A DNA stretch of 1,930 nt, taken from the NCBI RefSeq assembly GCF_003334785.1, contig NZ_QOWV01000058.1. One strand, given 5' to 3'. A program made the position numbers and the translations under genes. The notes below the pieces were generated by a model, which worked only from the letters and a program-made list of their open reading frames with translations, had not been told where the DNA came from and ran no database searches. Source of the stretch: Escherichia coli. GTDB taxonomy: Bacteria > Pseudomonadota > Gammaproteobacteria > Enterobacterales > Enterobacteriaceae. Numbering within the stretch: position 1 is the stretch's first letter; the number at the start of each line of letters is the position of its first letter. This document shows, one piece after another, positions 124 through 1,930 of the stretch.

Positions 124-153
124 TTGAAGTTATGCACCTGTTAAGGCTAAACT
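124..153 (+). promoter_or_regulatory. RNA I promoter
   Basis: -35 TTGAAG at 124-129, 18-nt spacer, -10 TAAACT at 148-153, start near 160. Same arrangement as the remembered pMB1/p15A RNA I promoter. Confidence 0.7.
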
Positions 154-159
154 GAAAGA

Positions 160-267
160 ACAGATTTTGGTGACTGCGCTCCTCCAAGCCAGTTACCTTG
201 GTTCAAAGAGTTGGTAGCTCAGCGAACCTTGAGAAAACCACCGTTGGTAGCGGTGGTTTTTCTTTAT
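160..267 (+). ncRNA. RNAI: Antisense copy-number control RNA I (about 108 nt) of a ColE1-family replicon
   Basis: Starts ACAGATTTTGGTGACTGCGCT as in ColE1-family RNA I. It ends in a stem-loop ACCACCG-ttggtag-CGGTGGT followed by a T-run, and the length matches the canonical 108 nt. Confidence 0.85.
237..266 (+). terminator. RNA I intrinsic terminator (third stem-loop plus U-tract)
   Basis: Perfect 7-bp stem ACCACCG (237-243) / CGGTGGT (251-257) with a 7-nt loop, immediately followed by TTTTTCTTT. Confidence 0.75.
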
Positions 268-274
268 TTATGAG

Positions 275-303
275 ATGATGAATCAATCGGTCTATCAAGT
301 CAA
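275..303 (-). promoter_or_regulatory. RNA II (replication primer) promoter
   Basis: On the - strand: -35 TTGACT (+ coords 298-303), 17-nt spacer, -10 CATCAT (+ coords 275-280), predicted start near 268. It sits where the RNA II promoter lies in ColE1-type replicons. Confidence 0.6.
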
Positions 304-323
304 CGAACAGCTATTCCGTTGAC
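299..323. repeat. 7-bp perfect inverted repeat GTCAACG-(11 nt)-CGTTGAC spanning the -35 elements of two divergent promoters
   Basis: GTCAACG at 299-305 and its reverse complement CGTTGAC at 317-323, read directly from the sequence. Confidence 0.8.
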
Positions 324-347
324 AAAAAAACAAGATCTGTACATATT
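319..347 (+). promoter_or_regulatory. Candidate sigma70 promoter for the toxin-antitoxin operon
   Basis: -35 TTGACA at 319-324, 17-nt spacer, -10 CATATT at 342-347, flanked by A7/A6 tracts. A weak SD-like ACGGA lies at 359-363, 8 nt before the ATG at 372. An in-frame stop at 279-281 with no intervening start codon fixes 372 as the start. Confidence 0.5.
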
Positions 348-371
348 CAAAAAAAACAACGGATTGACCCA

Positions 372-1412
372 ATGGCACAGAACCCGTTTAAAGCACTAAA
401 TATCAATATTGACAAGATTGAGTCTGCTCTGACGCAGAATGGCGTCACAAACTATTCCTCTAATGTAAAAAACGAAAGAGAAACTCACATATCTGGCACA
501 TATAAAGGAATAGACTTCTTAATAAAACTAATGCCATCAGGCGGAAATACCACTATCGGAAGAGCGTCTGGGCAAAATAACACTTACTTTGATGAAATCG
601 CCTTGATTATAAAAGAAAACTGTTTGTATTCAGACACAAAGAACTTTGAATACACCATTCCAAAATTCAGTGATGATGACAGGGCAAATCTATTTGAATT
701 TCTTTCTGAAGAGGGGATAACAATAACAGAAGATAATAATAACGATCCTAATTGTAAACACCAATATATTATGACCACCAGCAATGGTGACAGGGTCAGG
801 GCAAAAATTTACAAGCGCGGCTCTATTCAATTCCAAGGAAAATACCTTCAAATCGCGAGTTTGATTAACGATTTCATGTGCTCAATACTAAACATGAAAG
901 AGATTGTCGAACAAAAAAATAAAGAATTTAATGTTGACATAAAAAAAGAAACTATTGAGTCCGAGTTGCATAGCAAACTACCAAAAAGCATCGATAAAAT
1001 CCATGAAGATATCAAAAAACAGCTATCATGCTCGCTAATAATGAAAAAAATAGATGTCGAAATGGAAGATTACTCAACATACTGCTTCTCTGCATTAAGA
1101 GCCATAGAAGGCTTTATATATCAAATACTTAATGATGTTTGCAATCCATCATCATCAAAGAACCTTGGCGAATACTTCACTGAAAACAAACCCAAATATA
1201 TAATCAGAGAAATACACCAAGAAACTATAAATGGTGAAATAGCGGAAGTTTTGTGTGAATGCTACACTTACTGGCATGAGAACAGGCATGGTTTGTTTCA
1301 TATGAAACCAGGAATAGCTGACACGAAGACAATTAACAAATTAGAATCAATCGCAATCATCGATACCGTTTGCCAATTAATAGATGGTGGCGTAGCTAGG
1401 TTGAAATTATGA
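372..1412 (+). CDS. rnlA: RnlA/LsoA-family endoribonuclease toxin (RNase LS-like, HEPN-type), 346 aa
   Basis: Long ORF starting at the first ATG after an in-frame stop. C-terminal motif ENRHGLFHM (R305-x4-H310) fits the HEPN R-[NHD]-x3-H signature. LRAIEG (aa 242-247), GEYF (aa 266-269) and the R-H-x-LFHM block match my recollection of RnlA/LsoA. A downstream 126-aa partner overlaps by ATGA, as in rnlAB/lsoAB. Family call is from memory, not a database search. Confidence 0.7.
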   Translation: MAQNPFKALNINIDKIESALTQNGVTNYSSNVKNERETHISGTYKGIDFLIKLMPSGGNTTIGRASGQNNTYFDEIALIIKENCLYSDTKNFEYTIPKFSDDDRANLFEFLSEEGITITEDNNNDPNCKHQYIMTTSNGDRVRAKIYKRGSIQFQGKYLQIASLINDFMCSILNMKEIVEQKNKEFNVDIKKETIESELHSKLPKSIDKIHEDIKKQLSCSLIMKKIDVEMEDYSTYCFSALRAIEGFIYQILNDVCNPSSSKNLGEYFTENKPKYIIREIHQETINGEIAEVLCECYTYWHENRHGLFHMKPGIADTKTINKLESIAIIDTVCQLIDGGVARLKL

Positions 1413-1789
1413 AAAAAGATAAAAAATATCAAATAGAAGCAATAAAAAATAAAGATAAAACTTTATTTATTGTCTATGCTACTGATATTTATAGCCCGAG
1501 CGAATTTTTCTCAAAAATCGAATCCGACTTGAAGAAAAAGAAAAGCAAGGGTGATGTTTTTTTTGATTTAATAATTCCTAACGGTGGAAAAAAAGATCGT
1601 TACGTCTATACGTCATTTAATGGCGAGAAGTTTTCAAGTTACACATTAAACAAAGTTACGAAAACTGATGAATATAATGATTTATCTGAGCTCTCGGCTT
1701 CGTTCTTTAAAAAAAACTTTGATAAGATCAACGTAAACCTTCTATCCAAAGCCACATCATTTGCTTTGAAAAAAGGCATTCCAATATAA
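1409..1789 (+). CDS. rnlB: RnlB/LsoB-family antitoxin, 126 aa, lysine-rich
   Basis: ATG at 1409 overlaps the upstream TGA (ATGA), with an AGG SD-like element at 1398-1400. Size and position match the RnlB/LsoB antitoxin encoded downstream of its toxin. The segment GDVFFDLIIPNGG resembles a remembered RnlB segment. No MNT (GSxxxG/DxD) or HTH motif is evident. Confidence 0.6.
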   Translation: MKKDKKYQIEAIKNKDKTLFIVYATDIYSPSEFFSKIESDLKKKKSKGDVFFDLIIPNGGKKDRYVYTSFNGEKFSSYTLNKVTKTDEYNDLSELSASFFKKNFDKINVNLLSKATSFALKKGIPI

Positions 1790-1805
1790 TATCAAGCCAG
1801 AAGAC

Positions 1806-1834
1806 ATTTACCATAACGTCTCATTACGCGCACC
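1806..1834 (-). other. cer-like XerC/XerD site-specific recombination core (plasmid multimer resolution site)
   Basis: The - strand reads GGTGCGCGTAA-TGAGACG-TTATGGTAAAT. The right arm is identical to the ColE1 cer XerD arm TTATGGTAAAT, and the left arm differs from the dif XerC arm GGTGCGCATAA at one position. The central region is 7 bp. Accessory (ArgR/PepA) sequences would lie at higher coordinates and run off the window. Confidence 0.6.
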
Positions 1835-1930
1835 GCCAAAACGCGCTGAACGCGATTCTGACGCAGACACCGCAAAAAGAGATGTTTTCCCCGGGGTAAA
1901 CCGGAAAAATGCGTCAGGATCGCTTTCAGC

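What the first reader, a model, noticed from the sequence alone, without database searches (positions are those of the whole stretch)
275..347. Back-to-back divergent promoters for the replication primer and the toxin operon share a dyad-symmetric core
The RNA II promoter (- strand, -35 at 298-303) and the toxin promoter (+ strand, -35 at 319-324) are about 15 bp apart. Each -35 lies within one arm of the perfect 7-bp inverted repeat GTCAACG/CGTTGAC (299-305 / 317-323). This could be simple divergent-promoter symmetry, or it could be an operator where a dimeric regulator (for example the TA complex) binds and links toxin-antitoxin expression to replication priming.
Basis: partly seen in the sequence, partly recalled or inferred. 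Interest (0 to 1): 0.5.

Follow-up and report, generated by a model that had tools for sequence, protein, structure and literature searches.

The report
Ordinary back-to-back promoters on pOSAK1
The small mirror-image repeat between the replication-primer promoter and the lsoAB toxin-antitoxin promoter of plasmid pOSAK1 is almost entirely what two outward-facing promoter "-35" boxes produce anyway, and nothing found here suggests it is a regulatory protein-binding site.

Summary
The window is 100% identical to the ColE1-type plasmid pOSAK1 of E. coli O157:H7 Sakai, which carries the known LsoA/LsoB toxin-antitoxin (anti-phage) pair.

- GTCAACG (299-305) and CGTTGAC (317-323) form a perfect 7-bp inverted repeat.
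- A sigma-70-like site on the minus strand (TTGACT-17-CATCAT) sits where the RNA II promoter must be, given the RNA I match at 162-265.
- The best sigma-70 match in the window (TTGACA-17-CATATT) lies 25-53 bp upstream of the lsoA ATG.

The operator idea is not supported:
- Five of the 7 bp in each arm are simply TTGAC, the -35 core. The other 2 bp would pair by chance about 6% of the time.
- An inverted repeat of this size appears in 6-14% of shuffled sequences.
- In the only sister haplotype (about 85-90% identical, with an RnlA/RnlB-type cassette) the right arm is CATTGAC, so the perfect dyad is lost. All four promoter hexamers stay invariant, and the 15 bp between the -35 boxes is the least conserved stretch.
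- LsoB has only the RnlB domain and no recognised DNA-binding domain.
- One single-replicon plasmid keeps this region without lsoAB.
- The half-site occurs nowhere else on pOSAK1.

Verdict: ordinary divergent promoters, low interest. Regulator-free interference between the two promoters remains untested.

The parts
162..265 (+). RNA I antisense copy-number control RNA of the ColE1-type replicon. It fixes where RNA II must start on the opposite strand.
   Evidence: Rfam RF00106 match, 83.7 bits, E 1.9e-15, full length. The terminator-like hairpin at 233-261 followed by a T run is its 3' end.
275..280 (-). Predicted -10 hexamer (CATCAT) of the RNA II primer promoter. The predicted start is at about 268-269.
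   Evidence: Promoter scan. The start 7 nt downstream (268) matches the ColE1-equivalent position, 13 nt upstream of CCACC (alignment A2). The hexamer is invariant in both haplotypes.
298..303 (-). Predicted -35 hexamer (TTGACT) of the RNA II primer promoter. It overlaps the left arm of the dyad.
   Evidence: Invariant in all 17 related loci.
299..305 (.). Left arm of the inverted repeat, GTCAACG. Five of its 7 bp are the complement of the TTGAC -35 core.
   Evidence: Invariant in relatives.
304..318 (.). The 15-bp stretch between the two -35 hexamers. It is the least conserved part of the intergenic region.
   Evidence: Identity between pOSAK1 and type B is 73% here, against 91% for the whole intergenic region. 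Substitutions fall at 309, 312, 313 and 318.
317..323 (.). Right arm of the inverted repeat, CGTTGAC. Five of its 7 bp are the TTGAC -35 core. G318 is specific to the pOSAK1 lineage.
   Evidence: The arm is CATTGAC in every type-B plasmid and metagenome contig.
319..347 (+). Predicted sigma-70 promoter of the lsoAB operon: TTGACA, 17-nt spacer (containing a GATC at 334-337), CATATT. The predicted start is at about 354.
   Evidence: Joint best promoter match in the window, 10 of 12. It lies 25-53 bp upstream of the lsoA ATG. The hexamers are invariant in every related locus; the 17-nt spacer is identical between pOSAK1 and the type-B reference plasmid L004, though other type-B plasmids carry a T341C change or one extra A in it. 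No start-site mapping is available.
348..371 (+). Short leader and weak ribosome-binding region of lsoA. An IS1 element sits at the position equivalent to 366/367 in some relatives.
   Evidence: Sequence. Type B has GAGG where pOSAK1 has GACC. IS1 junction.
372..1412 (+). lsoA, encoding the RnlA-family HEPN endoribonuclease toxin (346 aa).
   Evidence: ORF. Annotated as lsoA in identical plasmids. Pfam RnlA_toxin_N, RnlA_toxin, RnlA-toxin_DBD and HEPN_RnaseLS.
1409..1789 (+). lsoB, encoding the RnlB-family antitoxin (126 aa). Its start overlaps the lsoA stop (ATGA).
   Evidence: ORF. Annotation. Pfam RnlB_antitoxin is the only domain found.

Best explanation
The region 275-347 holds two ordinary sigma-70 promoters placed back to back. 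One fires leftwards and makes RNA II, the ColE1-type replication primer (start at about 268-269). The other fires rightwards and makes the lsoA-lsoB mRNA (start at about 354). Each has a near-consensus -35 box (TTGACT and TTGACA). Two outward-facing TTGAC cores are reverse complements of each other by definition, so they automatically form a 5-bp inverted repeat. In the pOSAK1 lineage two neighbouring bases (C304-G305 and C317-G318) also happen to pair, which extends it to 7 bp. The dyad is therefore a by-product of promoter architecture and not a dedicated operator.

Shown here: the sequence features, their positions relative to RNA I and lsoA, and their conservation pattern.

Inferred: that both sites are the active promoters, and that no regulator binds the dyad.
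For: - Identity and context: the window is 100% identical to pOSAK1 and carries lsoA and lsoB. RNA I is at 162-265.
- RNA II promoter: TTGACT-17-CATCAT on the minus strand predicts a start at about 268, matching the ColE1 RNA II start relative to the conserved CCACCGC stem.
- lsoA promoter: TTGACA-17-CATATT is the joint best match in the window and the only candidate in the 104-bp gap before the lsoA ATG.
- Composition of the dyad: 5 of the 7 bp in each arm are the -35 core (read). The chance that the two extra flanking pairs match is about 6%, from the base composition.
- Chance level: an inverted repeat of this size occurs in 6-14% of shuffles.
- Comparative pattern: only two haplotypes were found in PLSDB and in metagenomes. 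All type-B copies read CATTGAC, which breaks the perfect dyad. All four hexamers are 100% conserved, and the lsoA promoter spacer is identical between pOSAK1 and the reference type-B plasmid. The 15 bp between the -35 boxes are only 73% conserved, against 91% for the intergenic region and 85% for lsoA.
- Half-site distribution: GTCAACG occurs nowhere else on pOSAK1.
- Host regulators: no resemblance to IscR, LexA, CRP or FNR sites.
Against: - No transcription start site, footprint or reporter data for pOSAK1 could be found in the searchable literature, so both promoters remain predictions.
- The comparison rests on only two haplotypes, so a single substitution (G318A) carries much of the weight. 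A 6-of-7 dyad could still bind a protein.
- The intergenic region is somewhat better conserved (91%) than the flanking genes (about 85%), which leaves room for constraints beyond the hexamers.
- The single-stranded DNA hairpin folds better than shuffles do (-6 kcal/mol, z -4.2). That only restates that the repeat exists.
Confidence: 0.8

Rival explanations
1. The dyad is an operator for the LsoA-LsoB complex or for LsoB alone. Binding would repress the lsoAB promoter and at the same time the RNA II promoter, tying toxin-antitoxin level to replication priming.
For: - The perfect 7-bp inverted repeat covers both -35 boxes.
- Many type II toxin-antitoxin operons are autoregulated through palindromes at their promoters (general statement in PMC7167474).
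- A precedent exists for an antitoxin that directly controls plasmid replication: PrpT/PrpA (PMC7848731).
- The two N-terminal domains of RnlA and LsoA have a TBP-like fold that binds nucleic acid, namely the RNA substrate (PMC8266594).
Against: - LsoB shows only the RnlB_antitoxin domain. RnlB is a single compact four-stranded-sheet, two-helix domain that binds the toxin as a monomer, with no separate DNA-binding module described (PMC8266594).
- For the chromosomal homologue, the regulator reported is the host protein IscR, and the antitoxin has its own internal promoter (title of Otsuka et al. 2010 and summary in PMC5535158).
- The extra symmetry beyond the -35 cores is lost in all type-B cassettes, whose proteins are 84-87% identical.
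- A single-replicon type-B plasmid (NZ_CP138799.1) keeps the region but has no lsoA or lsoB.
- The region upstream of K-12 rnlA has no similar motif.
- The half-site centres are 18 bp apart, an awkward phase for a simple dimer (inference).
Confidence: 0.04
2. The dyad is the binding site of some other dimeric factor, either a host transcription factor or the plasmid's small MobA/NikA-like ribbon-helix-helix protein. Centred about 43 bp upstream of both predicted starts, it would control both promoters together.
For: - The dyad centre (311) is equidistant, about 43 bp, from the two predicted starts (calculated).
- The intergenic region is slightly better conserved than its flanks.
- pOSAK1 encodes a small mobilisation protein that probably binds DNA.
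Against: - No match to IscR, LexA, CRP or FNR consensus sequences better than in shuffles (the consensus sequences were taken from memory).
- The half-site is unique on the plasmid, with no copy in the mobilisation region.
- Both promoters already have near-consensus -35 boxes, so an activator at that position is not needed.
- The bases specific to the dyad are not conserved.
Confidence: 0.05
3. There is no regulator, but the geometry itself couples the two promoters. With starts about 86 bp apart and -35 boxes 15 bp apart, the upstream contacts of the two polymerases would overlap (about 299-323). Divergent transcription would also feed negative supercoils into the shared region. lsoAB transcription and primer synthesis would then influence each other. 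This is compatible with the best explanation and adds a functional consequence to it.
For: - Geometry.
- The linkage between the origin and lsoAB, and the exact spacing between the two -35 boxes, are maintained across the two diverged haplotypes.
- Interference between back-to-back promoters is known from phage lambda PR/PRM, whose starts are about 82 bp apart (own knowledge, not checked here).
Against: - This is purely inferential and nothing here measures transcription.
- Conserved spacing over only two haplotypes is weak evidence.
- The plasmid with IS1 at the position equivalent to 367 still carries the promoter, so it says nothing either way.
Confidence: 0.2

Closest known systems
ColE1/pMB1 RNA II primer promoter with antisense RNA I
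   Same: - RNA I is a full-length Rfam match.
- The 5' region of RNA II aligns with ColE1.
- A sigma-70 -35/-10 pair places the start at the same distance from the first stem as in ColE1.
- The plasmid also carries rop.
   Different: - The promoter sequence itself is not alignable with other ColE1-like plasmids. BLAST similarity to thousands of them stops at window position 261-267.
- In ColE1 the DNA upstream of the promoter is the end of the co-directional colicin/lysis operon. It is not a divergent promoter.
RnlA-RnlB (E. coli K-12, CP4-57 prophage) and LsoA-LsoB toxin-antitoxin anti-phage modules
   Same: - The window's genes are lsoA and lsoB themselves, with the RnlA and RnlB Pfam domains.
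- The order is toxin first.
- The toxin stop and antitoxin start overlap.
- There are candidate internal promoters for the antitoxin, as reported for rnlB (PMC5535158).
   Different: - K-12 rnlA sits next to a divergent gene, yfjM, and its upstream region shares no motif with the pOSAK1 dyad.
- Regulation of rnlA is attributed to IscR, and no IscR-like site is seen here.
Classical type II toxin-antitoxin autoregulatory operators (for example RelBE, CcdAB, MazEF)
   Same: A palindrome overlapping the promoter of a toxin-antitoxin operon.
   Different: - In those systems the antitoxin carries a dedicated DNA-binding domain and the palindrome is distinct from the -35 box.
- Here the antitoxin has no such domain (PMC8266594).
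- The palindrome here is essentially the two -35 cores, and its extra bases are not conserved.
PrpT/PrpA, an antitoxin that controls plasmid copy number (PMC7848731)
   Different: According to that paper's title and abstract, PrpA acts directly on replication of a conjugative plasmid. From my own knowledge, not checked here, it does so by binding iterons of a Rep-dependent origin. pOSAK1 is an RNA-primed ColE1-type replicon, and no binding is indicated.
Back-to-back divergent promoters such as phage lambda PR/PRM (own knowledge)
   Same: Two outward-facing sigma-70 promoters with starts about 80-90 bp apart and adjacent -35 regions.
   Different: Lambda has three well-defined repressor operators between and over its promoters. 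No separate operator is discernible here.

Membership tests
ColE1-type RNA II primer promoter | An antisense RNA I gene overlaps the 5' end of the primer transcript. | tested here: met
   RF00106 match at 162-265 on the plus strand, 83.7 bits.
ColE1-type RNA II primer promoter | A sigma-70 -35/-10 pair positioned so that transcription starts just beyond the 3' end of RNA I. | tested here: met
   TTGACT-17-CATCAT at 303-275 on the minus strand. The predicted start at 268-269 is 13 nt upstream of CCACC, as in ColE1.
ColE1-type RNA II primer promoter | An experimentally mapped transcription start. | not testable with these tools
   No start-site data for pOSAK1 were found.
Sigma-70 promoter of the lsoAB operon | A consensus-like -35 and -10 with a 16-18 bp spacer, upstream of the first gene. 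| tested here: met
   TTGACA-17-CATATT at 319-347, 10 of 12. The ATG is at 372.
Sigma-70 promoter of the lsoAB operon | Conservation of the hexamers in related cassettes. | tested here: met
   The hexamers are identical in all related loci, and the spacer is identical between pOSAK1 and the type-B plasmid L004, while nearby bases vary. There are only two haplotypes.
Type II toxin-antitoxin autoregulatory operator | The antitoxin (or the complex) has a DNA-binding domain (RHH, HTH, AbrB, Phd/YefM type). | tested here: not met
   LsoB matches only PF15933 RnlB_antitoxin. RnlB is one compact alpha/beta domain (PMC8266594). LsoA matches only RnlA and HEPN domains.
Type II toxin-antitoxin autoregulatory operator | A palindrome at the operon promoter that is distinct from the core promoter elements and conserved with the cassette. 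| tested here: not met
   Five of the 7 bp per arm are the -35 core. G318A breaks the repeat in all type-B cassettes.
Type II toxin-antitoxin autoregulatory operator | Demonstrated protein binding and repression. | not testable with these tools
   Needs gel shift, footprinting or reporter assays.
RnlA/LsoA-RnlB/LsoB toxin-antitoxin module | A toxin with RnlA N-terminal, repeated and HEPN (Dmd-binding) domains, followed by an RnlB-family antitoxin. | tested here: met
   Pfam hits. 100% identity to annotated lsoA and lsoB.

The most novel reading that the evidence does not exclude
The tight back-to-back placement, with -35 boxes 15 bp apart and starts about 86 bp apart, has been kept through about 15% sequence divergence. 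It might functionally couple transcription of the LsoAB defence/addiction module to synthesis of the replication primer. The coupling could come from polymerase competition or supercoiling, or from an unidentified dimeric factor at the dyad. Either way, toxin-antitoxin dosage and plasmid copy number would regulate each other.
Probability: 0.1. Interest if true: 0.45.

Novelty: new member of a known kind. Interest (0 to 1): 0.15.

Why it matters
If the dyad were a real operator, it would be the first DNA-level link between an RnlAB-family defence module and ColE1 copy-number control, and the first sign that this antitoxin family regulates transcription. The evidence points the other way. The arrangement is a routine pair of divergent promoters, and the symmetry follows from two -35 boxes. 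Its main value is as a cautionary example: inverted repeats that coincide with divergent -35 elements should not be read as operators. It also gives a reasonable annotation of the two pOSAK1 promoters.

Tried and rejected
- More distant relatives of the intergenic region. blastn in distant mode at E up to 1 against PLSDB found only the pOSAK1 and type-B groups. An arm-free pattern gave 8 metagenome contigs with the same two haplotypes and none in the species-representative genomes. The comparative power is therefore limited.\n- The idea that both promoters belong to a reusable 'cargo slot' of the replicon, because two Klebsiella plasmids keep the region up to 366 without lsoA. I rejected this as stated. 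The break is an IS1 insertion or scar exactly at that point, and one of the two plasmids is a two-replicon cointegrate. Only NZ_CP138799.1 is a clean case of the replicon living without lsoAB.\n- Host-factor sites. IscR types 1 and 2, LexA, CRP and FNR consensus sequences (from memory) match no better than in shuffles.\n- Extra copies of the half-site or dyad on pOSAK1. There are none.\n- A shared motif with the region upstream of K-12 rnlA. There is none.\n- MAFFT aligned the T-run of the ColE1 promoter with the T-run at 331-325 on the minus strand of pOSAK1. I judged this a low-complexity artefact and not evidence of an ancestral promoter.\n- Primary papers on rnlA regulation and the discovery of rnlAB (PMC2907204, PMC3018318) are not held. 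Otsuka and Yonesaki 2012, the lsoAB paper, was not seen.

Full report
**What the window is.** The 1930-bp window is 100% identical to pOSAK1, the 3306-bp ColE1-type plasmid of E. coli O157:H7 Sakai (AB011548.2 830-2759, reverse strand), and to dozens of identical plasmids. It contains:
- part of the RNA II/RNA I replication control region, with RNA I as a full-length Rfam match on the plus strand at 162-265 (83.7 bits);
- a 104-bp intergenic gap;
- lsoA (372-1412, 346 aa) and lsoB (1409-1789, 126 aa).

LsoA matches the RnlA N-terminal, repeated and Dmd-binding/HEPN domains. LsoB matches only RnlB_antitoxin. LsoA-LsoB is a published anti-phage toxin-antitoxin pair that is counteracted by phage T4 Dmd (PMC5308261; PMC7167474).

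**Checking the observation.**
- GTCAACG (299-305) and CGTTGAC (317-323) are perfectly complementary, with 11 nt between them (I7). The repeat cannot be extended.
- The consensus scan finds TTGACT-17-CATCAT on the minus strand (303-275) and TTGACA-17-CATATT on the plus strand (319-347). The -35 hexamers are 15 bp apart.

Statistically none of this is remarkable.
- An inverted repeat of at least 7 bp with a spacer of 20 nt or less turns up in 13.6% of dinucleotide shuffles of the intergenic region and in 6.2% of shuffles of 275-347. Several comparable repeats lie inside lsoA and lsoB.
- The number of promoter-like hits in the window (6) equals the shuffle expectation of 5.7.

**Are these the promoters?**

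For RNA II the positional argument is strong.
- In ColE1 replicons RNA I is antisense to the 5' end of RNA II, so RNA II must start just beyond 265 on the minus strand.
- The CATCAT hexamer at 280-275 predicts a start at about 268.
- In an alignment with ColE1, the known ColE1 start lies 13 nt upstream of the conserved CCACCGC stem, which corresponds to window position 269.
- Similarity to thousands of other ColE1-like plasmids stops at 261-267. The promoter sequence itself is therefore lineage-specific, but its position is canonical.

For lsoA:
- TTGACA-17-CATATT is the joint best match in the window.
- It is the only candidate in the gap.
- It sits 25-53 bp upstream of the ATG.

Neither start has been mapped in any paper I could search.

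**What the dyad is made of.** Positions 299-303 (GTCAA) are the complement of the TTGAC core of the RNA II -35 box. Positions 319-323 (TTGAC) are the core of the lsoA -35 box. Two divergent -35 boxes with the same core are an inverted repeat by definition. The only symmetry beyond the promoter elements is the pairing of C304-G305 with C317-G318. Given the local base composition, that happens by chance about 6% of the time.

**Comparative evidence.** Only about 94 PLSDB plasmids share 262-375. A pattern that leaves the arms and the spacer free retrieved 8 metagenome contigs and no species-representative genome. All copies fall into two haplotypes: the pOSAK1 type, and a 'type B' found on small plasmids of E. 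coli, Salmonella, Klebsiella and Hafnia. In type B the cassette proteins are 87% (toxin) and 84% (antitoxin) identical to LsoA and LsoB.

In every type-B copy the right arm reads CATTGAC, so the repeat is perfect only over the 5-bp -35 cores. Identity between the two haplotypes, region by region:

| Region | Identity |
|---|---|
| RNA I region | 84% |
| lsoA | 85% |
| lsoB | 84.5% |
| Whole intergenic region | 91% |
| All four promoter hexamers | 100% |
| lsoA promoter spacer | 100% |
| 15 bp between the two -35 boxes (304-318) | 73% |

The spacer figure compares pOSAK1 with one type-B plasmid (L004). Three other type-B plasmids have a T341C change in the spacer and two have an extra A. The stretch between the -35 boxes carries 4 of the 9 intergenic substitutions, at 309, 312, 313 and 318. 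That is the pattern expected for two constrained promoters separated by unconstrained filler. It is the opposite of what an operator centred there would show. The caveat is that there are only two haplotypes.

**Could the toxin-antitoxin complex bind there?**
- LsoB has no recognisable DNA-binding domain.
- Its homologue RnlB is described as fully folded: a four-stranded mixed sheet between two helices. Two monomers bind an RnlA dimer (PMC8266594). It has no separate ribbon-helix-helix or helix-turn-helix module of the kind classical antitoxins use.
- For the chromosomal homologue, the literature attributes transcriptional control of rnlA to the host protein IscR and gives rnlB its own internal promoter (PMC5535158). 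No IscR-like site is present here, and the region upstream of K-12 rnlA shares no motif with the dyad.
- The half-site GTCAACG occurs nowhere else on pOSAK1.
- One residual possibility remains. The two N-terminal domains of RnlA and LsoA have a TBP-like fold that binds nucleic acid, namely the RNA substrate. DNA binding by the toxin cannot be excluded by sequence analysis.

**Plasmids that keep the region without the cassette.** Two Klebsiella plasmids and two metagenome contigs match the type-B intergenic region up to the equivalent of position 366 and then diverge.
- The break is an IS1-family element. It is a full 771-bp copy in NZ_CP138799.1, 92.5% identical to the annotated IS1 on the same plasmid. 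In CP037447.1 it is a 20-bp terminal-repeat scar.
- Neither plasmid encodes LsoA or LsoB.
- CP037447.1 is a cointegrate with a second replicase, so it says little.
- NZ_CP138799.1 has a single ColE1-type origin. This replicon, with the 6-of-7 version of the dyad, is therefore maintained without the cassette in cis.

This argues against any obligatory role of LsoAB at the primer promoter. It says nothing about a modulatory role.

**Most likely mechanism.** Two independent sigma-70 promoters stand back to back. The dyad is a by-product of their -35 boxes plus two fortuitous base pairs in one lineage (confidence about 0.8).

A secondary possibility needs no regulator. With starts about 86 bp apart, the upstream contact zones of two polymerases (to about -55) would overlap over roughly 299-323. 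Divergent transcription also generates negative supercoiling between the two promoters. The two promoters might therefore influence each other, as described for lambda PR/PRM (my own knowledge, not checked here). The conserved spacing is compatible with this, but nothing here tests it.

**Comparison with known systems.** The left promoter is a member of the ColE1 RNA II promoter class by position, and the cassette is LsoAB itself. The dyad fails two defining features of a type II toxin-antitoxin operator: a DNA-binding antitoxin, and a conserved palindrome distinct from the core promoter.

**Verdict.** This is an ordinary instance of a known arrangement on an already sequenced and studied plasmid, and interest is low (0.15).

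Noticed in passing
Window 366/367 equivalent; L009 4258-5028; L001 375-394; L013, L014: An IS1-family element is inserted exactly between the lsoA-type promoter/leader and the ATG in type-B plasmids. NZ_CP138799.1 and one metagenome contig have a full copy. CP037447.1 and another contig have a 20-bp terminal-repeat scar. The RnlAB-type cassette is gone in all of them and has been replaced by other cargo: an acyltransferase, or a DUF4433 (DarT-like) gene.
   Followed up: partly
Window 1176-1204 and 1318-1347 (+): Two good sigma-70-like sites lie inside the 3' part of lsoA: TTCACT-17-TATAAT and CTGACA-18-TAGAAT, both 10 of 12. Their hexamers are nearly conserved in type B. They are candidates for an internal lsoB promoter, like the one reported about 280 nt upstream of rnlB in K-12 (PMC5535158).
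   Followed up: partly
Window 1409-1412: The lsoA stop codon and the lsoB start codon overlap (ATGA), which suggests translational coupling.
   Followed up: no
Window 315-321 / 357-363: The same G318 that completes the dyad also completes a second perfect 7-bp inverted repeat, TCCGTTG/CAACGGA, between the -35 region and the lsoA leader. This repeat is also broken in type B, which reads TCCATTG.
   Followed up: partly
Window 334-337: A GATC (Dam methylation) site within AGATCT lies in the spacer of the predicted lsoA promoter. It is invariant in all relatives.
   Followed up: no
Window 150-200 versus type B (alignment A1): The first stem-loop of RNA I differs between pOSAK1 and type-B plasmids, while the second and third are nearly identical. 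The two lineages may therefore differ in incompatibility specificity.
   Followed up: no
L003 50-193, L004 1041-1184, L006 1229-1375, L018 784-942: RefSeq annotates 37-52 aa 'replication initiation protein' CDSs lying over the RNA I/RNA II region of these ColE1-type plasmids. They are probably spurious ORF calls over an RNA-only replicon.
   Followed up: no
Window 1790-1930: The block conserved between pOSAK1 and type B (origin plus cassette) ends right after lsoB, and 1790-1930 is not alignable (33% identity). A terminator-like hairpin on the minus strand at 1909-1886 would follow the convergent mobA gene.
   Followed up: no
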